From Acholeplasmataceae bacterium (GTDB lineage: Bacteria; Bacillota_I; Bacilli_A; Acholeplasmatales; Acholeplasmataceae): DNA of 64,000 nt. Positions 21,397 through 57,205 of the stretch are shown here, piece after piece; positions within the stretch are counted from its first letter, which is position 1; the number at the start of each line of letters is the position of its first letter. The notes beneath the pieces are model-generated. The model did no database searches. It had not been told where the DNA came from and saw only the letters and a program-made list of their open reading frames with translations. The DNA is taken from contig OY782823.1 in the NCBI GenBank assembly GCA_963678355.1, forward strand, positions 1,056,800 through 1,120,799. The letters are read 5' to 3'. The position numbers and the translations under genes are program-made.

Positions 21397-22680
21397 CTAT
21401 ATATCATTTCTAATTAAATCTTCTAAAGTTTCTCTTTTTACGACAACTCTTGACTCATTTTCATTAACAAATACAACTGCTGGTTTTAATAATCTGTTAT
21501 AGTTTGATGCCATTGAGTAATGGTATGCTCCAGTTGTAAAAACTGCAATGATATCATCTTTCTTTATTTCAGAAAGCAAAATATCATGAATGATCATATC
21601 ACCTGATTCACATGCTTTTCCAGCAATCGTGTAGACTTTAGGATTGTCTCCTTCAACACGATTGGCAATCACTGCTTCATATTTCGCTTGATAAAGTGCA
21701 GTGCGCATATGATCAGCCATTGAACCATCAATAAATGCATAATTTTTCTTACCAAAAGTTGTTTTAACGCTACCTACTGTGTAAAGTGTCATACCAGCAT
21801 CAGCAACAATTGAACGACCAGGTTCAATCATTAATTTTTCAATATTCAAACCCTGTTTTTTTATCTCATCATATGCTGTATCAACAACATCTTTTAACAT
21901 CTCTTCAATTGAAGGCACGTGATCATCTTTTGTATATTTAATACCAAAACCCCCGCCTAAGTTGATATATTTTATATCAACATCGATCATATCTTTAACT
22001 TTTTTTGCAAAATCAATCATTTCTATTGCATGATCTCTAAAACTCTTGATCTCAAAAATTTGTGATCCAATGTGTGCATGAATACCCATGAAATGAAATG
22101 CTGATGCATTTATCTCTTTAATGAGTGCAATTGTTTGATCATCAAACGCTGAAACCCCAAATTTAGAGTTATGATGTGTTGTTTTTATATATTCATGCGT
22201 ATGTGCCTCAACACCTGTGTTTACACGCAATAATAAATTGGGTTTATATTCAGTATTTAACTCGCTTAATAAAGCAAATTCATCGGCATGATCAACAACG
22301 ATTGTACCTACTTTATGCTCTAATGCAAAAACTAATTCTTCTCTTGTTTTATTATTGCCATGAAAATAGATTCTACTAGGATCAAAACCTGCAGCAATCG
22401 CAGTATAAAATTCTCCAATAGAAACTACATCTAAAGATAAGTCTTGTCGTTGTACTAGGCGCACCATTTCTTTAGCTAGAAAAGCTTTCCCAGCAAAGAT
22501 AACTTCAGTTTTAATGCCATCGTGTTTAAAGTACTTTTTCATCGTTTGCATATTATGAATCATTTTTGCCTCATCCATAACATACAATGGCGTTTGATAC
22601 TTATCAACAAGTGCTTTTGCAGTATGCGTTCCAATTAATAATTGATTGTTATTTACTTCAAATTCATGTACTTTTTTCAT
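21397..22680 (-). CDS. lysA: Diaminopimelate decarboxylase LysA
   Basis: Fold-III PLP decarboxylase motifs (FAGKAF, GGG.G, ESGD). Start placed at MKKVHEF, which has an AAGGA RBS. The longer ORF start at 22716 would overlap the riboswitch terminator. Confidence 0.85.
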   Translation of the reverse strand: MKKVHEFEVNNNQLLIGTHTAKALVDKYQTPLYVMDEAKMIHNMQTMKKYFKHDGIKTEVIFAGKAFLAKEMVRLVQRQDLSLDVVSIGEFYTAIAAGFDPSRIYFHGNNKTREELVFALEHKVGTIVVDHADEFALLSELNTEYKPNLLLRVNTGVEAHTHEYIKTTHHNSKFGVSAFDDQTIALIKEINASAFHFMGIHAHIGSQIFEIKSFRDHAIEMIDFAKKVKDMIDVDIKYINLGGGFGIKYTKDDHVPSIEEMLKDVVDTAYDEIKKQGLNIEKLMIEPGRSIVADAGMTLYTVGSVKTTFGKKNYAFIDGSMADHMRTALYQAKYEAVIANRVEGDNPKVYTIAGKACESGDMIIHDILLSEIKKDDIIAVFTTGAYHYSMASNYNRLLKPAVVFVNENESRVVVKRETLEDLIRNDI

Positions 22681-22695
22681 ATAATCATCCTTTAC

Positions 22696-22895
22696 AAAAA
22701 ATAAAAACCATGGCAAAAGACATGGTTTTAATAACGAACGCTTCTGCCCCTCCGTAAATCAGCGCAATCTTCAATCATTGGGCAATGATTGAGAACAGTC
22801 ATATGTCTATTAAACATATGCCCAGTATCAAATAGATACTTCGGCACACATTCCTTTCCTTGGAAGTACTCTTAATGTATGCAGCCTCTTAATTT
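22696..22895 (-). ncRNA. Lysine riboswitch (L-box) with intrinsic terminator in the leader of the lysA-dapL operon
   Basis: Minus-strand leader reads AAGAGGCTGCATACATTAAGAGTA...GGAAAGG...GTGTGCCGAAG...GACTGTTC...TTGAAG..GCGCTGATT. Compare the B. subtilis lysC L-box elements AGAGGTGC, AAGAGTA, GTCGCCGAAG, CTGTCA, TTGGAGGGCTATC. It ends in hairpin AAACCATGTCTTTTGCCATGGTTT plus TTTTATTTTTT, directly before the lysA RBS. Confidence 0.65.
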
Positions 22896-22950
22896 ACAGT
22901 GATTTAATTTTCAAGTTATTTTAACATAAGTATAGTTAATTGTCTACCTT

Positions 22951-24202: not shown

Positions 24203-24276
24203 TGGAGGCCTCAAACGGATTTGAACCGATGATCAGGCAGTTGCAGTGCCTTGCCTTACCACTTGGCTATGAGGCC
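24203..24276 (-). tRNA. tRNA-Cys (anticodon GCA)
   Basis: Reverse complement GGCCTCA-TA-GCC-AAGTGGTAA-GGC-A-AGGCA-CTGCAAC-TGCCT-GATC-ATCGG-TTCAAAT-CCGTT-TGAGGCC-TCCA. Cloverleaf with 7-bp acceptor stem and GCA anticodon in a 7-nt loop. One T-T mismatch in the T-stem. Encoded CCA. Confidence 0.8.
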
Positions 24277-41200: not shown

Positions 41201-41933
41201 TATCATTGAAATCAATCATTTAACCAAGACATTTAACGAAACACTTCATGCAGTAAATGATGTGAATTTAACCATTAGTAAAGGTGAAGTTGTATCTATT
41301 ATAGGCCCAAGTGGTAGTGGTAAATCAACTTTACTTAGATGTATTAATTTTATGGAAGTTCCTACTTCGGGTGATGTTATATTTGAAGGTACATCCCTCT
41401 CAATTAAAGATAAAAGTATCAATACCTTACGACAAAAAATTGGTATGGTATTTCAATCATTTAATTTATTCCCTCACTTAAATGTACTCGATAATATAAC
41501 AATCGCCTTAACAACCGTTTTAAAAAAGAGTAAGGCTGAATCCATTGAAACAGCCAAAGCTTTATTGAATAAGGTTGGCTTAATAGATAAAATAAATAGT
41601 TTCCCTGCTCAGCTTTCGGGCGGTCAGAAACAAAGAATAGCGATTGCTAGAGCACTTGCTATGAATCCTGATGTCATGCTTTTTGATGAACCTACTTCTG
41701 CACTTGATCCTGAAATGGTTGGTGAAGTATTATCAGTTATGAAAGATTTAGCTAAAGCTGGTATGACCATGGTAATCGTTACTCATGAAATGGGTTTTGC
41801 TAAAGAGGTCTCTGATCGTGTGATTTTTATGGCCGATGGTAAAATCGTGGAAGAAGGCACACCTTCACAAATATTTAATAAACCTAAAAAAGATAGAACA
41901 ATTGATTTCTTAAAAAGAGTGAATCAAAAATAA
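41184..41933 (+). CDS. Polar amino-acid ABC transporter ATP-binding protein
   Basis: Walker [18 protein letters not shown] signature, Walker [12 protein letters not shown]. Start at MPTV after an AAGGAG RBS. Confidence 0.85.
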
Positions 41934-41935
41934 AG

Positions 41936-41964
41936 ACTGGAAATTTCCAGTCTTTTTTTAACGA
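41936..41964. terminator. Bidirectional intrinsic terminator
   Basis: aaagactggaaatttccagtcttttttt perfect hairpin with A/T runs on both sides, between convergent genes. Confidence 0.7.
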
Positions 41965-41965
41965 T

Positions 41966-43237
41966 TTACTTATTTAAAACTTCTTCTATGATCATAAGAC
42001 TATCTAGATTGTCTACTTCATCTTCAAATATGTCATATAGTGCATCAGATCTTTGTTCAAATTGATCAACGGTATACGAAACATCCAATCCAATGATGTG
42101 AAGCGAGATGATCTCATCTGAAATTTTATCTTCACCTTCTTTGGTATATGTGAAAACTGGATACTCTGAATTTCTCCAAGTATCAGAAATGCTTGCACCA
42201 TTAAGTCCACCTGAAAATAACTCGACATCACCATGATATAATGCGTAGCGATTTGAATCTAATTTGTGAAGTTCATCCCAGCCATATACTTCGTATAAGT
42301 TCACCATATAATAGTCAGGTGTGTAAACAAACTTTAACTTATGTTTTACAAAACTACCATACATGACCATTGACGTCGGTTCATTATCTAAAGTTCGATA
42401 ACTAGCAACTTCTTTTGTAGATGCAAGATAAATATGAGTAAAATATTCTGTACCTGAATTTCGATAATAGAAAATATCCATATCTTCTTTAACTTGATCT
42501 ATATTCGTTTTAAGATATTCGACGTCTATCTGATTTGTATTTAGGTTTACGTAATAAGATGTTTCACCAATACCTTCAATAAATCTACTAAAGGATTTTA
42601 ATGCCATTTCATTATTCTCTATAAATCTTCTTGTAATAGTTAATTCTAAAACTTTTTTTGATTGATCACTGATATAGCCATAAATTTCTATCGAGTGCTC
42701 AAATAAACTATCTTCATATGAAAAGCTCAGCCATAAAAACTGATCTTCTCTATAAAAATTAAAATCTTTAATGCGATTATTCGAATAAAACCTTTCGCCT
42801 TCATCTAATTCTAAATCTTTAATGGCACCTATTGCCATATTAAAGTAAAAATCTTTAAACAGATAAAACTGGGATAAATGAGCAGGAATAGTCAAATCAC
42901 TATTTAAAAGCCATAAATTATCACTTAAAACTCTATCATCAGATAGGTTGTAATTAACATAATCACTACGCTTTATGACGTCTTTATCATCTAAATCATT
43001 ATCAATATATCCTTCTTTTTCTGACATATTGATAAACGTATCAAGATTTTCAGGATAGTATGTATCAACTGCATCATTAACCATTTTTAAATAATCTTCA
43101 AATACATATTGGGATGTTTCCCAATCATCATTACTTTCATTTTCAAAATAAGGATTTGATAGATGATTATTTCCACATGCATAAAGTACGACTAACAACA
43201 GACTCATTAATATTAAATTTAAAACTCTTTTCCTCAT
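41966..43237 (-). CDS. Uncharacterised lipoprotein (423 aa), last gene of the unknown-function cluster
   Basis: Signal peptide plus lipobox LLVVLYACGNN. Acidic, Y/D/N-rich, no recognisable catalytic motif. Confidence 0.55.
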   Translation of the reverse strand: MRKRVLNLILMSLLLVVLYACGNNHLSNPYFENESNDDWETSQYVFEDYLKMVNDAVDTYYPENLDTFINMSEKEGYIDNDLDDKDVIKRSDYVNYNLSDDRVLSDNLWLLNSDLTIPAHLSQFYLFKDFYFNMAIGAIKDLELDEGERFYSNNRIKDFNFYREDQFLWLSFSYEDSLFEHSIEIYGYISDQSKKVLELTITRRFIENNEMALKSFSRFIEGIGETSYYVNLNTNQIDVEYLKTNIDQVKEDMDIFYYRNSGTEYFTHIYLASTKEVASYRTLDNEPTSMVMYGSFVKHKLKFVYTPDYYMVNLYEVYGWDELHKLDSNRYALYHGDVELFSGGLNGASISDTWRNSEYPVFTYTKEGEDKISDEIISLHIIGLDVSYTVDQFEQRSDALYDIFEDEVDNLDSLMIIEEVLNK

Positions 43238-43253
43238 AACCCCTCCAATTTAT

Positions 43254-44051
43254 TTAAATCAAAAATATACTGATAACAAGCGTGCCTAAGAAAAGTATGA
43301 TTTCAAATACATTTACTAGAGTATATCTTATGTTTAATGAATCCTTATCAAAACTTAGATCATGCCATATAATATCATTAAGAACTTGATTTTTAATCAC
43401 CGTTCTAAATGCAAATCGATTAACTATTGCATATACAACATATGAAATAGCTACAGACCCCAAAATCAATAATGCAGTTAAATTATCTCTTAATAAAATG
43501 AATATCATCAATGTGATAAGTCCAGACAATAGCGTCATATGATGTAGAAATAAAAAATGTTTATGATTCATTTTGAATTGTTCATCATAGTAAGAGACTT
43601 TATAAAATTGATTTAACTTTACTTCGTTATATTTATCATCTCTACCAATGGCTTCAAGTTTCATCTTTAATGCTTTAATCAGTTCCCAAGAACCTATTAC
43701 TTCTTTCGATATGATGATAGGATCTTGATGTCTAGATGATATGATGATAGAACTTCCTGTAAATTTATCCTTTGACGATTCTATATAGATGATATCTTCA
43801 TATAAAACCGTATATTCAATTTTATGATTTTCAAAAGAAATACCATCATCTGTAATTATATATTTAGTTTGTCTTCTTTGTTTCATATATCGAATAGAAA
43901 CAAAACATAAAAATAACAGTACACCAGAAATAATTTCTTCAAATGAATGATCATGAATGCCTATAATAATGATCGTAGCTGATATTATAATGTAAAAATA
44001 GGAAGCGATTGCTGTGCCGTTTTCCTTTTTTAACTGATATGTTTGGTTCAT
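43254..44051 (-). CDS. Membrane protein with bacterial PH-like (bPH) central domain, paralogue 2
   Basis: 265 aa. Two TM, then YIITDDGISFENHKIEYTVLYEDIIYIE..., then KLEAIGRDDKYNEVKLNQFYKVSYYDEQF, then two TM. Clear paralogue of the upstream gene. Confidence 0.5.
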   Translation of the reverse strand: MNQTYQLKKENGTAIASYFYIIISATIIIIGIHDHSFEEIISGVLLFLCFVSIRYMKQRRQTKYIITDDGISFENHKIEYTVLYEDIIYIESSKDKFTGSSIIISSRHQDPIIISKEVIGSWELIKALKMKLEAIGRDDKYNEVKLNQFYKVSYYDEQFKMNHKHFLFLHHMTLLSGLITLMIFILLRDNLTALLILGSVAISYVVYAIVNRFAFRTVIKNQVLNDIIWHDLSFDKDSLNIRYTLVNVFEIILFLGTLVISIFLI

Positions 44052-44073
44052 CGTCGTCTCCTGTGTTAATTAA

Positions 44074-44889
44074 TTATGCAAAAATTTGAATTACAGCACC
44101 TAATATAACTGCCAATACTAATAAACCTATTTGAATATAAAATACATTTCTAAGTCTTTTTCTAGCAAGGTCTTTATCATATGGAACAACTTCCCATGAG
44201 ATTCCATGATTAGACTCTTTTTTAATTGCTTTTGTATATTTGTATAACTCTACATAAATATATGGAACTAAACCTAAAAGTAGAGAGCCTATAACCGTCA
44301 TTGAGATGATTTGAAAATCAAAAGCAGAAAACAGTATACCAACAACAATATGCGACACCAAAACTATAGAATATCTTGGAAAATAATATCTATTTCTTTC
44401 AAATGATTGATCTGAAAAATAAGATGTTTTAAAAAAGTTATTTAATTTTTTTTCGTTATAAATATCATTTTTTTCCATCTCATCAAGTTTTGTTTTTAAG
44501 TTTTCTACAAACTCACCGATACCATTAACAACCACTGTAAGTCTTAAAGGCTTATTTGTCGTTGAGTGAATGACTAACCATCCACCAGTGTATCTAATAC
44601 TTCTAGAATCTATGAATTTAATATCATCATATAAAATCGTAAACTGTTTTTTATAATCCTCATAATAAATCCCCTCATCAGTTAGCATATATTTTGTCGT
44701 TACTAGTTTTTTATAAAATCTATTCATAAGAAAAAAATAGAAAACAAAAAACAATGCTAAAATGAGCAATCCATAAGCCTCTGCTGCAATACTTGCAATA
44801 ATTAGTACAACAGCAAAAATGAGCATAGTTGGCAACAGAAATCTTTTTATATACTTTAAATGCTTTCTATATACGTACGCTTTATTCAT
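44074..44889 (-). CDS. Membrane protein with bacterial PH-like (bPH) central domain, paralogue 1
   Basis: 271 aa. Same TM-bPH-TM architecture (YMLTDEGIYYEDYKKQFTILYDDIKFID... KLDEMEKNDIYNEKKLNNFFKTSYFSDQSF). Confidence 0.5.
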   Translation of the reverse strand: MNKAYVYRKHLKYIKRFLLPTMLIFAVVLIIASIAAEAYGLLILALFFVFYFFLMNRFYKKLVTTKYMLTDEGIYYEDYKKQFTILYDDIKFIDSRSIRYTGGWLVIHSTTNKPLRLTVVVNGIGEFVENLKTKLDEMEKNDIYNEKKLNNFFKTSYFSDQSFERNRYYFPRYSIVLVSHIVVGILFSAFDFQIISMTVIGSLLLGLVPYIYVELYKYTKAIKKESNHGISWEVVPYDKDLARKRLRNVFYIQIGLLVLAVILGAVIQIFA

Positions 44890-44890
44890 T

Positions 44891-45382
44891 TTATTCCCCC
44901 TCGAATTCTAAAATAATTTTATTTAATAAACCTTTTGAAAGTGGTCCTCTCATCGGTTTAATTTCACTTAATTGATTCATAGGTACAAAAATCACTTGAT
45001 CGACTTCATCATTTTCGATAAATTGACCACTATCAACTTTCGCTTTAAAGACAATCCACACCAATCGATTCGCATCCATGGTTGTTACATGGTAAACTTC
45101 TAAATCCTTAATCTTATAGCCAGATTCTTCATAACACTCTCTTTTGGCAGCATCTTCCAAGGATTCACCTAAATCTCTATAACCCCCAGGAAATGTGTAT
45201 AAACCTGTTCTTCTCATACGAACCATAAGCACTTCGTTCTCTTCATTGGTTGCAAACACTACAGTAGATACATTGACCCAGTTATCCCAATCAATATACC
45301 CACAAGAACACTGTTTATAAGGCTTATTTTCGACTTTTATGTATTTCTCTAGTCTTAACCCACAATTTGGACAATATTTCAT
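44891..45382 (-). CDS. Nudix hydrolase with N-terminal zinc-ribbon (NudC-like minimal architecture)
   Basis: CPNCG...CSCG zinc ribbon, then Nudix box GGYRDLGESLEDAAKRECYEESG (GX5EX7REUXEEXGU). Confidence 0.8.
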   Translation of the reverse strand: MKYCPNCGLRLEKYIKVENKPYKQCSCGYIDWDNWVNVSTVVFATNEENEVLMVRMRRTGLYTFPGGYRDLGESLEDAAKRECYEESGYKIKDLEVYHVTTMDANRLVWIVFKAKVDSGQFIENDEVDQVIFVPMNQLSEIKPMRGPLSKGLLNKIILEFEGE

Positions 45383-45400
45383 AGATGAGCCTCTCTTTGT

Positions 45401-45589
45401 TTATGCTTTACTATCTAATATCCAACCAATATAGCTTGCTATAAAAATTGCGCCTAAACCAATCATCACGACAACACCACTCAACATATCAGTTGCCATA
45501 TGATCAATTATCGCATTGATCGCCAAAATAACGATTAAGATAAACGATATGATTGCAAGACCCAAATTTATTTGTTTTCTATATTTCAT
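45401..45589 (-). CDS. Small two-TM membrane protein (62 aa)
   Basis: Two hydrophobic helices. Tightly spaced between the GNAT and Nudix genes (18-19 nt gaps). Confidence 0.4.
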   Translation of the reverse strand: MKYRKQINLGLAIISFILIVILAINAIIDHMATDMLSGVVVMIGLGAIFIASYIGWILDSKA

Positions 45590-45608
45590 AAAATCCCCCG
45601 ATATATAT

Positions 45609-46115
45609 TTATTGTTTTTTTATTCTAGTATAATAATTTTCACGATCTTCATGATCAATATATGCACCATTATTTTTTTGTGCTCTAAGTGATCCTAGAT
45701 TTGTTTTTTTACAACTCATGTAGATCATATCTTCTTCAATTAAATCTTTCGTAGCTTCTAAGACTAACTTTAAGCCCTCTGTAGCAAACCCCTGTTGACG
45801 ATACTTTGGATGAATACCAAATCCAATATGTCCAGCACTATCCCTTAAGACATCATTTAAATAATGTCTGACTTTAAAAAGACCAACGATCAATTCATCT
45901 TGCCACAAGAAAAAATATGTATCTGGTACATGACCTACAGGTATATCAATACCATTTGCATGATTGATAATCTCTTTAGCAAACTTATTTGCGAAATCAT
46001 TGTAACTACATCCTGCATATTTGTTGATAAATCCATTTTCATCAAATGGTATTTCTTGTAAATATTGATATTCTTTTTTTAAATCACCCAAATTAAATTT
46101 CTTAACATATAACAT
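45609..46115 (-). CDS. GNAT-family N-acetyltransferase
   Basis: 168 aa. Motif A-like HIGFGIHPKYRQQGFATEGLKLVLE. Preceded by a TATAAT -10 box and a GAGGTG RBS. Confidence 0.6.
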   Translation of the reverse strand: MLYVKKFNLGDLKKEYQYLQEIPFDENGFINKYAGCSYNDFANKFAKEIINHANGIDIPVGHVPDTYFFLWQDELIVGLFKVRHYLNDVLRDSAGHIGFGIHPKYRQQGFATEGLKLVLEATKDLIEEDMIYMSCKKTNLGSLRAQKNNGAYIDHEDRENYYTRIKKQ

Positions 46116-46180
46116 GATTTGAGCACCTCATTAATTTATCTAAATTATAACATAAAAAAAACTTCCTACAAAGGAAGTCT
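46116..46180 (-). terminator. Internal terminator plus promoter between the LRR-protein gene and the GNAT gene
   Basis: Minus-strand hairpin AAAGACTTCCTTTGTAGGAAGT plus a T8 run, followed by TATAAT and an RBS. Confidence 0.55.
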
Positions 46181-48241
46181 TTAATTTTGTATTGCGTCAA
46201 TAAGACTTTGATTACCTTCTGCCTCAATGACTAAATTGTTGATATCACCTAAATAGGTCACAGTGACTAAAGTTGTGCTCTTAAACGCATTCGCTTCAAT
46301 ATATGTAACACTTCCAGGTATAATAAGTGTTTCGATACCACTTTGTTCAAATGCATACGATGGAATAATCTCTATACCTGATGGTAACTCAAAATCTTTT
46401 AAAGCGAATGTTTGATAGAAACTTCTAATCCCAATTTGACTAAGTTCATCTGGTAAAATAATGTGTTCTAAATCCCATGCTCGATAAAATGTAACATGAT
46501 GAATCATTTCAATATCGTAGATTTCTACAGTCTTTAATGTATTTGGAATCAGCTCATTACTTGTATAAGTAGCACTACCAAAAATATAGGCTAGCACATC
46601 AGTACTATTTCTAAGTTCATCACCTGATTCTCTTTTCTCACCTAGGAAAGGCACAGTTAGAGAAGTTAAATGATCTGCGCCTTCTAAAACACCGATACCC
46701 ATGTGTTGTACTGATATTGGGAAGGATATTTCAATAAGATTTTGTGCATTTGCAAATGCTCTTTTTCCAATAGACTCTAAATGACTATTAGGCTCAAAAA
46801 TAATCTCTTCTAAAGCAATTGCATTTTCGAAAGCTTCATCTTTAATCACTTCAACATGTGATCCAATGGTTAATGTCTTTAAATTATATAAATCTCTAAA
46901 TGTATGACTTTCAATCACTTGATCATTTACAGTTAAATGCTCAATAACGATTGGTACTAATTTAATATCACCATTTGTTTTATATAAAATATTGTTTTCA
47001 ACATAAAAATTTGGGTTATCATCATTGACGGTAACAACTTCTAAATCTTCAAGTACTGATGTTGAATATATATATAGATCATTAAGTGATGCATTAATAT
47101 TTAATGTCGTAATATCATAATTGAAATTTCTATCAAAAGTAATTGTAGAAACATCAATGCCATTAATTTTTTCAGGTACATCATATATCAATTCACTTGT
47201 TTCTACTGTTAAATTTAATCCACTGTGATTCACAACTAAACGATATGAACCAAAACGTATCCAAGAAACCGAAATCAAAAGTATAGAAATGACTAAGAAA
47301 ATCATTTTAGATGATTGGAAAACTACTTGATATCGTTTAAAATTTTGATACTTAACAAAATTATATATCATTAAAATATCTAGTAAGTATACAAATACTA
47401 AATTATAAGCAGTACCTACAAATACGATAATCATTACAATGTTTAGATACAAAATAATTGCATGTCTGATCACATCTAATATAATATGAAGCACTTTTTT
47501 ATAATAGAGTTTAGCAAAAATCAATCCGACAATCGATAGGATTAACAAAACCGGTAGAATAAATCGGTTGAGTATACCAAAAGCCTCATTTTTAATATTA
47601 TTTAGAAATAAGAAATCTCCCATAAAGCCTTGAATAAACAATTGAAATAATAAAGCTAAAGATAGTAATACAGAAGTGTATTTTAGTTGATTGACTTCTT
47701 TATCCGTATGTCTAGATATTTCATATAAATGATTATCATAGCTAAATAATTTTTTACGATCATTACCACAATATGCACAAACATCTTCTGATGATCCATG
47801 GATATGTCCACATGTACATATCCAATAATCGCTATAGTTTTCAGCGATATATTCGATACGCTCTTTTGTTTGATCTGTAAGTTTTGAAATCTCGTTTTTA
47901 TATAAAAATCTCTCAAACCCTAATTGATGTACTGACTTTGGTTGAGTAACATGTATTAATTTATACTGTTCAGCTATATAAGTCTTATCATTCGTATTGA
48001 ACTTAGATATGATAACAGAATCAGAAAAAGTGATATCGCTATGCTTTACTTCTAAAGAAAGAATTTGCTCACTAGATGAGACATCTACTAATATATTTGT
48101 GTTGCCAACTTGAAAAGAGATAACCTTTATATATAAACTTCTATCATTAAAAACCACCAAGTTGACTTGATGATTTTCTATTGAAAATGATTGAAGATAT
48201 AGAGGATAGTCTACATAATAGCTATTATTTTTTTTATCCAT
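46181..48241 (-). CDS. Multi-domain membrane protein: N-terminal domain with zinc ribbon, ~5 TM helices, C-terminal BspA-type leucine-rich repeat region
   Basis: 686 aa. WICTCGHIHGSSEDVCAYCG zinc ribbon. Hydrophobic block at about residues 190-330. Then LRR_5-like repeats (EAFENAIALEEIIFEPNSHLESIGKRAFANAQNLIEISFP, IPSYAFEQSGIETLIIPGSVTYIEANAFKSTTL). Confidence 0.6.
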   Translation of the reverse strand: MDKKNNSYYVDYPLYLQSFSIENHQVNLVVFNDRSLYIKVISFQVGNTNILVDVSSSEQILSLEVKHSDITFSDSVIISKFNTNDKTYIAEQYKLIHVTQPKSVHQLGFERFLYKNEISKLTDQTKERIEYIAENYSDYWICTCGHIHGSSEDVCAYCGNDRKKLFSYDNHLYEISRHTDKEVNQLKYTSVLLSLALLFQLFIQGFMGDFLFLNNIKNEAFGILNRFILPVLLILSIVGLIFAKLYYKKVLHIILDVIRHAIILYLNIVMIIVFVGTAYNLVFVYLLDILMIYNFVKYQNFKRYQVVFQSSKMIFLVISILLISVSWIRFGSYRLVVNHSGLNLTVETSELIYDVPEKINGIDVSTITFDRNFNYDITTLNINASLNDLYIYSTSVLEDLEVVTVNDDNPNFYVENNILYKTNGDIKLVPIVIEHLTVNDQVIESHTFRDLYNLKTLTIGSHVEVIKDEAFENAIALEEIIFEPNSHLESIGKRAFANAQNLIEISFPISVQHMGIGVLEGADHLTSLTVPFLGEKRESGDELRNSTDVLAYIFGSATYTSNELIPNTLKTVEIYDIEMIHHVTFYRAWDLEHIILPDELSQIGIRSFYQTFALKDFELPSGIEIIPSYAFEQSGIETLIIPGSVTYIEANAFKSTTLVTVTYLGDINNLVIEAEGNQSLIDAIQN

Positions 48242-48245
48242 TTTA

Positions 48246-48557
48246 TCAACCTAATAAATTAAATACGACAATCGATAATACAATATTAATTAAGCAAGAA
48301 ATTAATAATGTATTTTGATCCATTCGGTATTTTTTATATTTTTCAGATGTTTTATCTCTCTTAATTGTACCATTTTCTTTATAGTTATCTCTGTCATAAT
48401 GTGAAACACGACCAAAATAAAATGCTAATTCAAGTAACGCAAAAACAACCAATACAATTTCAAATAAGACCTCTCTTTGTGAGGTGAAATAAATGATACC
48501 ACCAATCACTAAAGGGATGCATATTAAAATTATTAGGTTCTTTACATTTATTTTCAT
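48246..48557 (-). CDS. Small three-TM membrane protein (103 aa), first gene of the cluster
   Basis: Three hydrophobic helices. Stop is 4 nt from the start of the LRR-protein gene. GGAG RBS. Confidence 0.45.
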   Translation of the reverse strand: MKINVKNLIILICIPLVIGGIIYFTSQREVLFEIVLVVFALLELAFYFGRVSHYDRDNYKENGTIKRDKTSEKYKKYRMDQNTLLISCLINIVLSIVVFNLLG

Positions 48558-48570
48558 TTCTCCAACTTCT

Positions 48571-48600
48571 TTCTACGGCAAAAAAGTACTCATCATGAGT
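48571..48600 (-). terminator. Terminator after oppF
   Basis: aaagtactcat(ca)tgagtacttt hairpin followed by a T-run on the minus strand. Confidence 0.55.
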
Positions 48601-48603
48601 ACT

Positions 48604-49590
48604 TTAAGCTTTTTTCCATTCTTTTAATAATTCAGGTGTTGCAAGTACAAAGCGGTCAGTTGATATTTCAATAAACTCACATGCTTCATAATCAATGTCA
48701 CCTTTTTCATAAACAACCTTCACTCTATCATCTTTAGATTTAGGGTCTGGTTGTGGAATTGCAGTTAATAACGCTCTTGTATATGGGTGAATTGGATTTG
48801 AATAAATTTCTTTAGCATCTCCTAATTCAACAATATAACCTTGATGCATTACAGCGATTCTATCAGAAATATATTTAATAATAGAAAGGTCATGTGCAAT
48901 AAATAAATAAGTAAGGTTATGTTCTCTTTGTAACTTTTTAAGTAAGTTTAGAACTTGTGCACGAATCGATACGTCAAGTGCTGAAATAGGTTCATCTGCA
49001 AGCACTAATTCTGGTTCAATAACCAAAGCTCTAGCAATCCCAATACGTTGTCTTTGTCCACCTGAGAACTCATGTGGATATCTAGATAAATGTTCTGGTA
49101 ATAAGCTTACATCTTCTAATATTTTATAGACTTTTTTTAAGCGATCTTCTTCATTTTCAAATAATTTAAAGTTATATAGACCTTCTGAGATAATATAATC
49201 CACATTTGCTCTATCATTTAGAGAAGCTGCAGGATCTTGGAAAATCATTTGAATTTGTTTCTTAGTAGCTTTTCTCTCAGCACGACTTAATGGTCTTGAA
49301 ATATTTTGGCCTTTAAAGTAAATGGCACCTTTAGATAAGTGATTAATCCCAATGATTGCTCTTGAAATTGTTGTTTTACCACTACCGGATTCACCAACTA
49401 AACCAAATGTTTCACCTTCATAAATTTTGAAATTTAAATTATTACATGCTCTAACAACTTTATTTCTACCAACTTTAAATCTAATATCAGCATCTTTTAC
49501 TTCTAAAAGAATTTTTCTACCAGTTTTTTCATCTACAGTTGGTACTTCATTAGGATAGATTACTTTTTCTTTTTTATTTTTACTGTTCAT
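48604..49590 (-). CDS. oppF: Oligopeptide ABC transporter ATP-binding protein OppF
   Basis: Walker A GESGSGKTT, LSGGQRQR signature, C-terminal oligopeptide-ABC extension. Confidence 0.85.
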   Translation of the reverse strand: MNSKNKKEKVIYPNEVPTVDEKTGRKILLEVKDADIRFKVGRNKVVRACNNLNFKIYEGETFGLVGESGSGKTTISRAIIGINHLSKGAIYFKGQNISRPLSRAERKATKKQIQMIFQDPAASLNDRANVDYIISEGLYNFKLFENEEDRLKKVYKILEDVSLLPEHLSRYPHEFSGGQRQRIGIARALVIEPELVLADEPISALDVSIRAQVLNLLKKLQREHNLTYLFIAHDLSIIKYISDRIAVMHQGYIVELGDAKEIYSNPIHPYTRALLTAIPQPDPKSKDDRVKVVYEKGDIDYEACEFIEISTDRFVLATPELLKEWKKA

Positions 49591-55154: not shown

Positions 55155-55603
55155 TCTCTTCCTCCTAAGATTTTAAATCCATTATCTCTCCAATAATGAT
55201 TTTAATTTATTATACTTAAGTAAAAATCACATGTCAATGAGAAAGTACAATTTAATGGTTAAAATTGCCAATGATAACGCTTTCTATACAGCAAAGTCAT
55301 TTTTTTGGTGTATTTTTTCCAAAAAATTATGTTTATTTTTAAAAAAAGTACAGTATCTCATCCATATTAAATCCGAATTATACGATGTTTTTAACAGAAA
55401 ATCAATTGTAAATATATTAATATATTTTCAATATAAGCTAATAAAGAGCTTCTTATATTGTAATATTCATCAGTATCTTCAAAGCAAATTCTTACATATC
55501 CCTATTTTTTACAAAACATATGTAAAAAAAAGTCTAATGCTTAAAGCACTAGACTTGGTCACTATTTTTTAAAGATGTATAAAATATTGTGTGGTAGAAG
55601 ATA

Positions 55604-57154
55604 GGCTTTAAAAAATAGTGTGGTATACCACCTAATTTTGGAAAGCTCTATTTTTTTGTATAAAAAAGAAACCCTGTCTTATACTATAGTTAACTGTCAT
55701 AACTTAAAGAAAGGAGGGTTTCATGGATTATGATACCATAAATATATTACATCTAGAAACAATTAGAGACAAGATTCAATTATTAGAAACGAGATTTGAA
55801 GAAAACCAATTAATCATAGAATTACGATTTTATAAACAAGAAATGATCTGCCCAGTATGTGGATCTGATCACATTAAATTTCATCGCTATTTATATAAAC
55901 ATATTATTCATTCAATCTCCACACATCAAAAAAATATGATTAGATTACATCAAAGAAGGTACCAATGCAAGGTATGTAAGAAAACATTTAGTGAATCAAA
56001 TCCATTATCGAATAGCAATGAAAATATTAGTTTGTATACTAAGATATCAATATTAAATTATTTAAAAGATTATAACCATACCTTCACATCAGCAGCAAAA
56101 CATTACTACATATCTATTCAGTCAGTTATTAATATATTTGATTCATATGTAGAATCGAAAAGACGAAAGTTACCTAAAGTCATCAATATTGATGAAGTCT
56201 TCACTTCTAGAACACATGATTATAAATACGCATGTGTGTTATATGATTTTATAGACAAGAAAATCATTGATGTCTTACCAACCAGACATAAAAACTACTT
56301 GATTAGATATTTCTCTAGAATACCTAAAAATGAGTTAGATCAAGTTGAAGTGGTGGTGATGGATATGTGGACTTCCTATAAGGAAGTCGTGAATCTATGT
56401 ATCCCAAAAGCAAAGATAGCTGTTGATTCATTTCATTTGATCAGAACGCTTAATGAAATCATTAAACGTCTTAGAATTGACATGATGCATAAATACAAGC
56501 AAGACAAAAGTAAACCTGTACATGAAGATATGTATTATTACATGTTAAAAAAATTTCATTACTTCTTCGTTAAAAACTATGAAGATATCTATGATGGTAA
56601 GATTAAGATTCATAAGACTGGCCAGTACTGGCATAAATCAGATATCCTTCATTATCTATTATCCATTGATGATGATTTAAAAGAAGCCTATATGTTAAAA
56701 GAACGGTATCGAGAATTTAATTTAACAGCCGCCTATGATACGTGTGATGATGAGTTAAACAACTTAATCCATCAATTTAGAAATCATAAAATCAAAGCAC
56801 TGCGATCATTTGGCAAGACACTCATTAATTGGAGAGATGAAATTAAGAATTCATTTTTAGTCTATGACAGTCGAAGAATATCAAATGGGCCTATAGAATC
56901 TGTTAACAATAAAATCAAAACTGTGATTAAGACATCTAATGGTATAAAGTCATTTAATAGACTCAGGAATAAGATTATGTATTCAATCAATAAAGACGTT
57001 CCAATTAAAAACAAATAAATAGAATAGTTATGGCAGATAAAAAGGCACTCGTCTGAGTGCCTTTACATTACCACATAATTTTAGAGAGGTCACATTGACC
57101 ACACTATTTTGGAAAGGTCTATTTGGTGTTTACCACACTATTTTTTAAAGACCC
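55604..57154 (+). mobile_element. ISL3-family insertion sequence (~1.55 kb)
   Basis: Left end GGCTTTAAAAAATAGTGTGGTATACC (55604-). Right end reverse complement GGGTCTTTAAAAAATAGTGTGGTAAACACC (ending 57154). About 24/26 identical inverted repeats. Single transposase ORF. Confidence 0.75.
55723..57018 (+). CDS. ISL3-family transposase
   Basis: 431 aa. N-terminal zinc-finger (CPVCGS...C..C) and DDE_Tnp_ISL3 core. GGAGGG RBS. Confidence 0.9.
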   Translation: MDYDTINILHLETIRDKIQLLETRFEENQLIIELRFYKQEMICPVCGSDHIKFHRYLYKHIIHSISTHQKNMIRLHQRRYQCKVCKKTFSESNPLSNSNENISLYTKISILNYLKDYNHTFTSAAKHYYISIQSVINIFDSYVESKRRKLPKVINIDEVFTSRTHDYKYACVLYDFIDKKIIDVLPTRHKNYLIRYFSRIPKNELDQVEVVVMDMWTSYKEVVNLCIPKAKIAVDSFHLIRTLNEIIKRLRIDMMHKYKQDKSKPVHEDMYYYMLKKFHYFFVKNYEDIYDGKIKIHKTGQYWHKSDILHYLLSIDDDLKEAYMLKERYREFNLTAAYDTCDDELNNLIHQFRNHKIKALRSFGKTLINWRDEIKNSFLVYDSRRISNGPIESVNNKIKTVIKTSNGIKSFNRLRNKIMYSINKDVPIKNK

Positions 57155-57205
57155 TTTTTTAATTGTTTTTTCATAACATTAATAAAATGCGACATACGCA
57201 TCTCT

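What the first reader, a model, noticed from the sequence alone, without database searches (positions are those of the whole stretch)
41966..48557. Compact eight-gene minus-strand cluster of uncharacterised envelope proteins plus two small-molecule enzymes
Eight co-directional genes are separated by only 1-22 nt, apart from one terminator/promoter junction at 46116-46180.
- Unit 1: small 3-TM protein, then a 686-aa zinc-ribbon / multi-TM / BspA-type LRR protein.
- Unit 2: GNAT, a small 2-TM protein, a zinc-ribbon-Nudix protein, two paralogous TM-bPH-TM proteins, and a 423-aa lipoprotein.

None belongs to a recognisable pathway, and the set fits no described operon I know. A Nudix pyrophosphohydrolase and a GNAT acetyltransferase sit alongside membrane-embedded PH-like proteins and a surface LRR protein. 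That combination could be a membrane-anchored sensing, defence or surface-modification module, but this is inference. It sits between the opp operon and an amino-acid ABC operon, so it is not in an obvious mobile context.
Basis: partly seen in the sequence, partly recalled or inferred. Interest (0 to 1): 0.7.

Follow-up and report, generated by a model that had tools for sequence, protein, structure and literature searches.

The report
Mosaic of unrelated accessory gene blocks
The eight tightly packed genes are real and correctly described, but related genomes show they are three or more independently inherited blocks, not one envelope or defence system, so the cluster is largely ordinary.

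Summary
Eight minus-strand genes (41966-48557) lie 1-22 nt apart, with one terminator/promoter junction, and every domain call was reproduced.

- **Block A:** g1 and g2 (zinc-ribbon / 5-TM / BspA-type LRR) follow oppF in two related metagenomic lineages, where a convergent gene comes next. They look like the tail of the opp operon.
- **Block B:** GNAT and Nudix are adjacent in the nearest complete genome and in two further relatives. The Nudix gene sits beside the same convergent amino-acid ABC operon.
- **Block C:** g6 is a rare membrane protein with a predicted PH-like fold. It follows Nudix in only two other short contigs. No g6 relative lies near the GNAT-Nudix pair in the nearest complete genomes, and none above 38% identity was found anywhere. 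In 20 Clostridia loci it stands alone in unrelated neighbourhoods.
- **Window-only genes:** g7 (a degenerate tandem copy of g6), g4 and g8 (an orphan lipoprotein).

PADLOC gave only one weak generic Nudix match, and no phage or plasmid link was found. Tight same-strand spacing is normal in this genome. What remains of interest is a lineage-restricted GNAT-Nudix(-PH membrane protein) array and a new small PH-like membrane family.

The parts
48583..48605 (-). Weak hairpin between oppF and g1. It is probably at most a partial terminator.
   Evidence: dG -12, z -1.9, and 11 of 200 shuffles fold as well. The equivalent 40-nt spacers in L021 and L022 have no convincing hairpin.
48246..48557 (-). g1: 103-aa protein with three hydrophobic segments. 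It is conserved upstream of g2.
   Evidence: Hydrophobic segments at residues 8-26, 30-48 and 84-102. It is 36-38% identical to the 105-aa gene in the same position in L021 and L022. No Pfam hit.
46181..48241 (-). g2: 686-aa protein. It has an N-terminal domain with a zinc ribbon, five TM segments and a C-terminal BspA-type LRR domain that is inferred to be extracellular.
   Evidence: LRR_5 at 1.9e-30. C142, C144, C155 and C158 are invariant. TM segments lie between residues 190 and 331. PDB relatives are BspA-type surface LRR proteins: 4fs7 at 2.4e-35, PcpA, TpLRR. Only two full-length homologues were found in 5.8e9 proteins.
46157..46182 (-). Intrinsic terminator that ends the opp-g1-g2 transcription unit.
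   Evidence: An 11-bp stem followed by eight T residues; dG -12.1, z -3.7. L021 and L022 also have hairpins after g2.
46144..46152 (-). Extended -10 promoter element TGTTATAAT for unit 2.
   Evidence: Read from the sequence. The -35 region is weak (3 of 6), so the consensus scan did not list it. Function is inferred.
45609..46115 (-). g3: 168-aa GNAT acetyltransferase. Its acceptor substrate is unknown.
   Evidence: Acetyltransf_3 scores 36 bits against a cut-off of 25.4. The R106-x-x-G109-x-A111 motif is invariant in four orthologues. The nearest solved structures are SpeG-type diamine acetyltransferases, but only at E about 1e-3. Orthologues sit directly upstream of Nudix in L023 (74%), L024 (51%) and L026 (46%).
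45401..45589 (-). g4: 62-aa small membrane protein with two TM segments. It is found only in this window.
   Evidence: Two hydrophobic segments and a good GGGGGA ribosome-binding site. It is absent between GNAT and Nudix in L023, L024 and L026, where the gaps are 15, 2 and 23 nt.
44891..45382 (-). g5: 163-aa zinc-ribbon Nudix hydrolase with an intact catalytic box. It is the conserved anchor of the locus.
   Evidence: NUDIX at 2.8e-16. C4, C7, C25, C27 and G67, E73, R81, E82, E85, E86, G88 are invariant in 47 homologues. It is 78%, 75% and 58% identical in three complete related genomes. The nearest structure is 3cng, an uncharacterised zinc-ribbon Nudix, at 1.6e-14.
44074..44889 (-). g6: 271-aa polytopic membrane protein. 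It has a TM hairpin, a PH-like beta-sandwich and three more helices. It belongs to a rare family.
43254..44051 (-). g7: 265-aa divergent tandem paralogue of g6.
   Evidence: 31% identity, E 6e-36. It departs from the family consensus at 21 of 34 conserved columns, against 5 of 34 for g6. All 22 other loci hold a single copy.
41966..43237 (-). g8: 423-aa lipoprotein of a very rare family.
   Evidence: Signal peptide and Cys21. Only 8 relatives (about 24-29% identical in the alignment) in 1.84e9 representatives, and the full-length ones carry an N-terminal lipobox Cys. No Pfam, PDB or PHROG hit. The AF2 model is poor, with pLDDT 64.
41932..41955 (-). Terminator that ends unit 2. It is shared with the convergent amino-acid ABC operon.
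   Evidence: 10-bp stem; dG -13.8, z -5.1, and 0 of 200 shuffles fold as well.

Best explanation
The region is an evolutionary mosaic carried on two transcripts, not one system.

**Unit 1.** g1-g2 is the distal end of the oligopeptide permease (opp) locus. The order oppD-oppF-g1-g2-terminator recurs in two other lineages. g2 most likely places a BspA-type leucine-rich-repeat domain on the cell surface, anchored by five membrane helices, with a zinc-ribbon domain in the cytoplasm. That suggests a surface binding or adhesion protein (inferred).

**Unit 2.** It starts at an extended -10 promoter and encodes a lineage-conserved cytoplasmic pair, a GNAT acetyltransferase and a zinc-ribbon Nudix pyrophosphohydrolase. 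The pair's ancestral position is beside the convergent amino-acid ABC operon. Their substrates cannot be assigned from sequence.

**The variable slot.** The space between Nudix and the ABC operon holds different genes in different genomes. Here it holds g6, its degenerate duplicate g7, and the orphan lipoprotein g8. g6 is a rare membrane protein whose PH-like domain follows a TM hairpin, as in YdbS/YdbT-type proteins. g4 is a window-specific insertion between GNAT and Nudix.

**What is shown and what is inferred.** Shown: gene content, domain and fold assignments, and the synteny pattern. Inferred: co-transcription, membrane topology and all biochemical roles.
For: - **Block A synteny.** L021 and L022 have g2 at 42% and 41% identity, g1 at about 37% and OppF at 75%. 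The two contigs are only 71% identical to each other, so they are separate lineages. Both show oppF-g1-g2, then a hairpin, then a convergent unrelated gene.
- **oppF-g1 spacer.** The hairpin in this window is weak, and L021 and L022 have no convincing hairpin there.
- **Block B.** GNAT is directly upstream of Nudix in L023, L024 and L026. L023 shares the downstream order ABC operon-DegV-pyruvate kinase-M29-S9 with the window at 69-97% identity. L027 and L052 also have the convergent ABC ATPase right after the Nudix or g6 gene.
- **Variable slot.** L023 has a 481-aa beta-lactamase/GNAT gene there, L027 has nothing, and L052 has one g6 homologue.
- **g6 is autonomous elsewhere.** Twenty Clostridia loci have one copy each. 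None has a relative of g1-g5 or g8 within 10 kb. Their neighbours are heterogeneous: cobalamin genes, a cellulase, a sigma factor, NfeD/Band7, and a two-component system with an ABC transporter.
- **No close relatives.** No g2, g6 or g8 relative above 42%, 38% and 31% identity exists in the protein collections, which do hold proteins of L023-L025.
- **No defence or mobile signal.** PADLOC gives nothing specific, PHROGs gives only generic hits, and there are no phage or plasmid matches.
- **Spacing is ordinary.** Tight same-strand spacing is the norm in this window.
Against: - GNAT-Nudix-g6 does recur in order in L026, and Nudix-g6 recurs in L052. In this window the Nudix stop and the g6 start are 1 nt apart. 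A functional link among these three genes is therefore not excluded.
- The relatives available are few. Several are short contigs, so absence could be scored only within the sequence held.
- Transcript structure is predicted, not measured.
- Genes of different evolutionary origin can still act together once they are co-transcribed.
Confidence: 0.7

Rival explanations
1. GNAT, Nudix and the PH-like membrane protein g6 form a genuine three-gene functional operon in this lineage. In this reading the cytoplasmic PH-like domain of g6 recruits or regulates the enzyme pair at the membrane, or senses its nucleotide-derived product. g7 would be a diverged partner subunit.
For: - The same gene order, GNAT-Nudix-g6, is seen in L026, and Nudix-g6-ABC in L052.
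- The Nudix stop and g6 start are 1 nt apart, with a Shine-Dalgarno sequence inside the Nudix 3' end.
- GNAT-Nudix are adjacent in four genomes.
- The g6 PH-like domain is predicted with confidence and lies on the cytoplasmic side by the positive-inside rule.
Against: - L023 and L024, the closest complete genomes, keep GNAT-Nudix without any g6 relative nearby. The protein search found no g6 relative above 38% identity anywhere.
- All 20 Clostridia members lack Nudix and g3-type GNAT neighbours.
- L027 has Nudix without GNAT or g6.
- 23 more distant Nudix loci have neither.
- The g6 position is a slot that holds unrelated genes in other genomes.
Confidence: 0.17
2. g6 and g7 act like the YdbS/YdbT or DdE/DdF pairs of membrane PH-domain proteins. 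They would export, or protect against, a membrane-active peptide or other envelope stress. g4 would be an associated small membrane peptide.
For: - The TM hairpin followed by a PH-like domain is the YdbS-type arrangement. Such genes occur as adjacent co-oriented pairs, and DdE/DdF are required for export of the leaderless bacteriocin EntDD14 (PMC8657885; PHb domains, PMC2817789).
- Some Clostridia homologues sit next to a two-component system with an ABC-2 exporter (L001, L008, L009) or next to NfeD/Band7 genes (L002-L005). These contexts are compatible with envelope stress, but that link is a lead from general knowledge and was not tested.
Against: - No Pfam bPH_2 hit in any of the 24 members.
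- The pair exists only in this window, and all other loci have a single copy.
- g7 has lost most family-conserved residues.
- g4 is a hydrophobic two-TM protein with little net charge, unlike leaderless bacteriocins (and sequence).
- There is no bacteriocin gene or dedicated exporter nearby. The adjacent ABC system is an SBP_bac_3 amino-acid importer.
- Neighbourhoods of the family are otherwise heterogeneous.
Confidence: 0.08
3. One reading: the eight genes form a single membrane-anchored sensing, defence or surface-modification module.
For: Co-direction and tight spacing. Envelope proteins are mixed with two small-molecule enzymes. There is a weak Nudix hit to the PADLOC candidate PDC-S07. 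In L024 the GNAT-Nudix pair lies next to AbiH, RelA_SpoT and DUF4145 genes.
Against: - The blocks separate in every relative examined.
- A strong terminator splits the set.
- The PADLOC hit is generic Nudix similarity at 35 bits, and no other gene hits.
- Tight spacing is normal in this genome.
- There is no phage or plasmid association.
Confidence: 0.04

Closest known systems
YdbS/YdbT (Bacillus subtilis) and DdE/DdF (Enterococcus faecalis) membrane-bound bacterial PH (PHb2) proteins
   Same: g6 and g7 have a TM hairpin directly followed by a small PH-like beta-sandwich with a C-terminal helix, and they are encoded as two adjacent co-oriented genes (PMC8657885).
   Different: - No sequence match to Pfam bPH_1 to bPH_6.
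- One PH-like domain is followed by three further TM helices, rather than the 2 TM + 1 PH or 6 TM + 3 PH layouts.
- The pairing is unique to this window.
- There is no bacteriocin or exporter context.
BspA-type LRR (Pfam LRR_5) surface proteins, e.g. PcpA (4cp6), TpLRR (6mlx), 4fs7
   Same: The C-terminal 340 residues of g2 match LRR_5 strongly, and they match solved BspA-type surface LRR proteins.
   Different: g2 is anchored by five internal TM helices and carries a conserved cytoplasmic N-terminal domain with a CxC...CxxC zinc ribbon. Only two full-length homologues were found, and both follow an opp operon.
NudC-type NADH pyrophosphatases and the uncharacterised zinc-ribbon Nudix 3cng
   Same: A zinc ribbon lies immediately N-terminal to a Nudix domain with an intact Nudix box. 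These are the best profile matches: 3cng at 1.6e-14 and NudC at 5e-10.
   Different: g5 lacks the NudC N-terminal domain and the SQPWPFPxS specificity motif. It scores 39 bits against the 158-bit NCBIfam cut-off. The substrate is unassigned.
SpeG / diamine N-acetyltransferase-like GNATs (Acetyltransf_3)
   Same: GNAT fold, acetyl-CoA motif and similar length.
   Different: Similarity is marginal (E about 1e-3 with a profile, and no hit with the single sequence). There is no NCBIfam hit.

Membership tests
Nudix hydrolase superfamily | Nudix box GX5EX7REUXEEXGU | tested here: met
   The box GYRDLGESLEDAAKRECYEESGY is present. G67, E73, R81, E82, E85, E86 and G88 are invariant in 47 homologues. 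Pfam NUDIX scores 60.2 bits against a cut-off of 21.1.
NudC (NAD(H) diphosphatase) | Zinc-binding motif N-terminal to the Nudix domain | tested here: met
   C4, C7, C25 and C27 are invariant. The alignment to NudC covers the zinc ribbon and the Nudix domain.
NudC (NAD(H) diphosphatase) | SQPWPFPxS motif downstream of the Nudix box, and the NCBIfam equivalog score | tested here: not met
   The sequence after the box is KIKDLEVYHVTTMDANRLVWIVF, which has no SQPWPFP motif. PRK00241 scores 39.2 bits against a cut-off of 158.
GNAT acetyltransferase superfamily | Pfam GNAT model above cut-off, and the acetyl-CoA-binding R/Q-x-x-G-x-G/A motif | tested here: met
   Acetyltransf_3 scores 36.0 against 25.4, and Acetyltransf_1 scores 25.6 against 20.7. 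R106-Q-Q-G109-F-A111 is invariant in four orthologues.
GNAT-toxin toxin-antitoxin pairs (TacT/AtaT type) | An adjacent small RHH/DUF1778 antitoxin gene | tested here: not met
   The neighbours are a terminator/promoter and a 62-aa two-TM protein. No DUF1778 or RHH hit is seen in any of the eight proteins. In L023, L024 and L026 the partner is the Nudix gene.
BspA-type LRR (LRR_5) surface proteins | Multiple LRR_5 repeats above the Pfam cut-off | tested here: met
   105.8 bits against 27.7, over two stretches. PDB profile hits to 4fs7, 4gt6, 4h09 and PcpA.
Bacterial PH domain families (Pfam bPH_1 to bPH_6) | Sequence match to a bPH profile | tested here: not met
   No hit for g6 or g7. Among 24 family members, only one matches bPH_6, at E 0.1.
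PH-like superfold | Seven-stranded beta-sandwich capped by a C-terminal helix | tested here: met
YdbS/YdbT-type PHb2 membrane protein pair | A conserved adjacent pair of PH-domain membrane genes across genomes | tested here: not met
   All 22 other loci hold one copy, and only this window has two.
Bacterial lipoprotein (g8) | N-terminal signal peptide ending in a lipobox Cys | tested here: met
   The N-terminus reads MRKRVLNLILMSLLLVVLYAC21. The Cys aligns with the L-x-G/S-C lipobox of its relatives. Tyr at position -2 is atypical. Lipidation itself is not testable here.
Known anti-phage defence systems (PADLOC-DB 2.0) | Match of system components to defence HMMs | tested here: not met
   The only hit is Nudix to PDC-S07 at 35 bits, which is generic. 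The other seven proteins give no significant hit.
Single conserved operon or gene cluster | Co-occurrence of the genes in related genomes | tested here: not met
   The blocks separate in L021, L022, L023, L024, L025, L027 and L052, and in 20 Clostridia loci.

The most novel reading that the evidence does not exclude
In an uncultured, wall-less-type low-GC lineage, GNAT-Nudix-g6 could be a real three-component unit. A previously undescribed family of polytopic PH-like membrane proteins would tether or gate a nucleotide-derivative-modifying enzyme pair at the membrane. That would be a new kind of membrane-coupled small-molecule signalling or envelope-precursor editing. g7 would be a specialised partner subunit.
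Probability: 0.12. Interest if true: 0.5.

Novelty: new member of a known kind. Interest (0 to 1): 0.25.

Why it matters
The main value is negative. A cluster that looks like a novel envelope or defence module from sequence alone turns out to be adjacent, independently inherited accessory genes in a compact genome where tight same-strand packing is the rule.

Two small positives remain:
- **A new PH-like membrane family.** It is rare (about two dozen members found in 5.8 billion proteins). It has a confident PH-like fold after a TM hairpin, which extends the YdbS/YdbT-type theme beyond the existing Pfam bPH families.
- **A surface LRR protein tied to opp.** The zinc-ribbon / 5-TM / BspA-LRR protein, with its small membrane partner, is conserved as the tail of an opp locus in three lineages. 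It may be relevant to surface interactions of wall-less Bacillota.

Tried and rejected

- The window's own g6 protein could not be looked up in the contig index.
- The genome-contig scan did not return the source genome, so the organism could not be named. The nearest named relative of the Nudix gene is 'Tenericutes bacterium GWC2_34_14', at 51% identity.
- The afdb50 fold library was unavailable.
- The first bPH literature search was swamped by planthopper and prostate papers. A Nudix+GNAT operon search found nothing relevant.

**Ideas considered and rejected**
- Defence system.
- GNAT toxin-antitoxin pair: no antitoxin gene.
- NudC identity for g5: the specificity motif is absent and the score is far below cut-off.
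- Leaderless-bacteriocin locus: g4 is not bacteriocin-like and there is no exporter.
- Phage or plasmid origin.
- L025's 412-aa gene upstream of Nudix as a g8 relative: no similarity.

**A chance association**
Two of nine extra Clostridia loci have an unrelated Acetyltransf_1 GNAT next to the g6 homologue. I judged this to be chance, given how common GNATs are, but I did not test it statistically.

Full report
**1. The observation**

The ORF scan reproduces the eight minus-strand genes exactly at the stated coordinates. The gaps between them are 4, 65, 19, 18, 1, 22 and 16 nt. Every gene has a recognisable Shine-Dalgarno sequence.

The domain descriptions hold up:
- **g2 (686 aa):** matches Pfam LRR_5 at 1.9e-30. 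It has five hydrophobic segments between residues 190 and 331. Its CxC...CxxC motif is invariant in its two orthologues.
- **g3:** a GNAT (Acetyltransf_3, 36 bits against a cut-off of 25.4).
- **g5:** a Nudix protein (2.8e-16). Its four zinc-ribbon cysteines and its Nudix-box residues are invariant across 47 homologues.
- **g6 and g7:** paralogues (31% identity, E 6e-36).
- **g1 and g4:** three and two hydrophobic segments respectively.
- **g8:** a signal peptide ending in Cys21, which aligns with the lipobox Cys of its relatives.

The 46116-46180 junction holds a hairpin with a U-run (dG -12.1, z -3.7). It is followed by an extended -10 element, TGTTATAAT. A second strong terminator follows g8 (z -5.1).

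However, 45 of 60 genes in the window are on the minus strand, and 46% of other same-strand neighbours are 25 nt or less apart. Compact co-directional packing is the background state of this genome and says little about function.

**2. Is the set co-conserved?**

All eight proteins, and even OppF, are singletons at 90% identity in a 15-billion-protein collection. Comparison had to rely on more distant relatives, and these split the cluster into blocks.

*Block A (g1-g2).* g2 has only two full-length homologues among 5.8 billion clusters (42% and 41% identity). Both lie on contigs with the order oppB-C-D-F, a 105-aa g1 homologue, the g2 homologue, a hairpin, and then a convergent unrelated gene. 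The two contigs are 71% identical to each other in g2, so they are separate lineages. The oppF-g1 spacer is 40-46 nt. Its hairpin in the window is weak (z -1.9, and 11 of 200 shuffles fold as well). The relatives show no convincing hairpin there. g1-g2 therefore behave as the tail of the opp locus, not as part of what lies downstream.

*Block B (GNAT-Nudix).* The Nudix gene is well conserved, at 78%, 75% and 58% identity in three complete genomes of about 1.6-1.8 Mb.
- In L023 and L024 a g3 orthologue (74% and 51%) sits 15 and 2 nt upstream of Nudix, with no g4 between them.
- L023 is a close relative (pyruvate kinase 97%, M29 peptidase 85%, DegV 86%). It shares the downstream order amino-acid ABC operon-DegV-PK-M29-S9 with the window.
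- In L023, between Nudix and the ABC operon, there is a convergent 481-aa beta-lactamase/GNAT fusion instead of g6-g8.
- Upstream of GNAT, L023 and L024 carry unrelated variable genes, not opp-g1-g2. These include HTH/M78 and GIY-YIG genes in L023, and AbiH, RelA_SpoT and an IS200-type transposase in L024.
- A metagenome scan with the Nudix alignment gave 26 more loci. Only L026 has the GNAT. L027 has a CPBP-type gene upstream and the ABC ATPase immediately downstream. The rest have neither GNAT nor g6.

*Block C (g6, g7, g8, and also g4).* The g6 family is rare, with 23 hits in 5.8 billion clusters.
- Two members are syntenic with the window. L026 reads GNAT-Nudix-g6 homologue and is cut off after 74 residues. 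L052 reads Nudix C-terminus, a single g6 homologue (38%), and then the convergent ABC ATPase (80%).
- All other members are in Clostridia: Clostridium, Anaerosporobacter and Lachnoclostridium.
- In those 20 loci, tblastn finds no relative of g1-g5 or g8 within 10 kb. A family HMM finds exactly one copy per locus.
- Their neighbours are heterogeneous. They include a two-component system with an ABC transporter and a GH18-LRR protein, NfeD/Band7 with Amidase_6, MFS with a Cu-oxidase, a Macro domain protein, cobalamin genes, a GH9 cellulase, a sigma factor, TauE and RNase T.
- g7 departs from the family consensus at 21 of 34 conserved columns, against 5 of 34 for g6. It is a degenerate duplicate found only in this window.
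- g8 has only eight relatives (about 24-29% identical in the alignment) among 1.84 billion representatives read exhaustively by HMMER. The full-length ones carry an N-terminal lipobox Cys. None lies near a g6 relative in the loci held.

A smaller GNAT-Nudix(-g6) array does recur within a narrow clade.

**3. What the parts are**

*g2.* With five TM segments and the zinc-ribbon domain placed in the cytoplasm, the LRR_5 domain would face outward (inferred). Its solved relatives are BspA-type surface LRR proteins (4fs7, 4gt6, PcpA, TpLRR). A surface binding or adhesion role is the most economical reading. The N-terminal 140 residues have no known relative.

*g5.* It has an intact Nudix box and a zinc ribbon. 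It lacks the NudC SQPWPFPxS motif and scores 39 bits against the 158-bit NCBIfam cut-off. Its best structural relative by profile is the uncharacterised zinc-ribbon Nudix 3cng.

*g3.* It is a divergent Acetyltransf_3 GNAT. The nearest solved relatives are SpeG-type diamine acetyltransferases, at only E about 1e-3. Neither substrate can be assigned.

*g6.* The AlphaFold model built on the 24-sequence alignment is confident (pLDDT 82.9, pTM 0.74). It shows a short N-terminal strand, a TM hairpin (residues 10-63), a beta-sandwich (66-118) capped by a helix (124-137), and three long helices (146-270).
- Foldseek's top hits for the sandwich are almost all PH-superfold domains: Rtt106, DENND3, the bacterial PH protein 3dcx, FERM and FACT. 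E values are weak (about 0.03) but probabilities reach 1.0.
- No Pfam bPH model matches any of the 24 members.
- The 'TM-bPH-TM' call is therefore right at the fold level, but the family lies outside the described bPH families.

*g8.* Its model was too poor to interpret.

**4. Comparison with known systems**

The nearest analogue for g6/g7 is the YdbS/YdbT-type pair of membrane PHb2 proteins. That pair includes DdE/DdF, which are required for export of the leaderless bacteriocin EntDD14 (PMC8657885; PHb domains, PMC2817789).

Shared features are the TM hairpin followed by a PH domain, and two adjacent co-oriented genes. The differences are:
- no sequence membership in the bPH families;
- a different TM/PH layout;
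- the pairing is unique to this window;
- there is no bacteriocin or exporter nearby, and the adjacent ABC system is an SBP_bac_3 amino-acid importer.

PADLOC gives only a generic Nudix match. PHROGs hits are generic. g6 has no match in phage, plasmid or viral collections.

**5. Verdict**

The cluster is real and was accurately described, but it is a mosaic.
- It combines the tail of the opp locus, a lineage-conserved GNAT-Nudix pair anchored beside an ABC operon, and a variable slot filled here with rare, species-specific envelope proteins.
- I put about 0.7 on this reading. I put about 0.17 on a genuine GNAT-Nudix-g6 functional unit, below 0.1 on a YdbS/T-like peptide export or immunity role, and about 0.04 on the original eight-gene module.
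- Interest is low to moderate. The remaining curiosities are the new PH-like membrane family and the opp-linked zinc-ribbon / 5-TM / LRR protein.

Noticed in passing
window 55595-57161: An apparently intact ISL3-family insertion sequence. The transposase gene is at 55723-57018 (DDE_Tnp_ISL3, 1e-50) and is flanked by 34-nt imperfect inverted repeats at 55595-55628 and 57128-57161. It lies about 440 nt upstream of oppA. It may relate to the synteny break between this genome and L023 upstream of the GNAT gene.
   Followed up: partly
window 22752-22898 (-): A lysine riboswitch (RF00168, 70.6 bits) lies upstream of the 439-aa gene at 21397-22716.
   Followed up: no
window 24203-24276 (-): A single tRNA-Cys(GCA) gene, the only tRNA in the window.
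   Followed up: no
L024 1-9500; L023 500-9400: In two related genomes the GNAT-Nudix pair borders variable islands. L024 carries DUF4145, AbiH, RelA_SpoT, a radical SAM gene and an IS200-type Y1 transposase. L023 carries HTH_3/M78 peptidase, GIY-YIG, several HTH genes, and MarR with glutathione peroxidase. The position upstream of GNAT looks like a hotspot for accessory and defence-type genes.
   Followed up: no
L001, L008, L009 (and L017): In one Clostridia/Bacillota group, the g6-family gene sits in a conserved array: response regulator, ABC ATPase, ABC-2 permease, histidine kinase, g6 homologue, then a 648-aa GH18 + LRR protein. L017 holds an identical g6-homologue match, but its neighbours were not examined. 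In another group (L002-L005) the gene follows NfeD/Band7 genes. Both contexts hint at an envelope-stress role for the family.
   Followed up: partly
window 41966-43237 (g8) compared with P0098-P0104: Relatives of the g8 lipoprotein share conserved cysteine pairs (C...EGE.C and CNNC) that the window's copy lacks. This suggests loss of disulfide or metal sites in this lineage.
   Followed up: no
L021 8233-8662; L022 2991-3461: The convergent gene after g2 in both relatives ends in tandem acidic repeats (PEYVWVDFEDSGE-like). About 300 nt of conserved-looking intergenic sequence, containing 'AATGCGACATC' boxes, precedes it.
   Followed up: no
window 43001-45000 and 47001-48000: GC content drops to 26-28% over g6-g7 and over the g2 TM region, against about 32% for the window and 33.5% over GNAT-Nudix. 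This fits membrane-protein codon content, more recent acquisition, or both.
   Followed up: no
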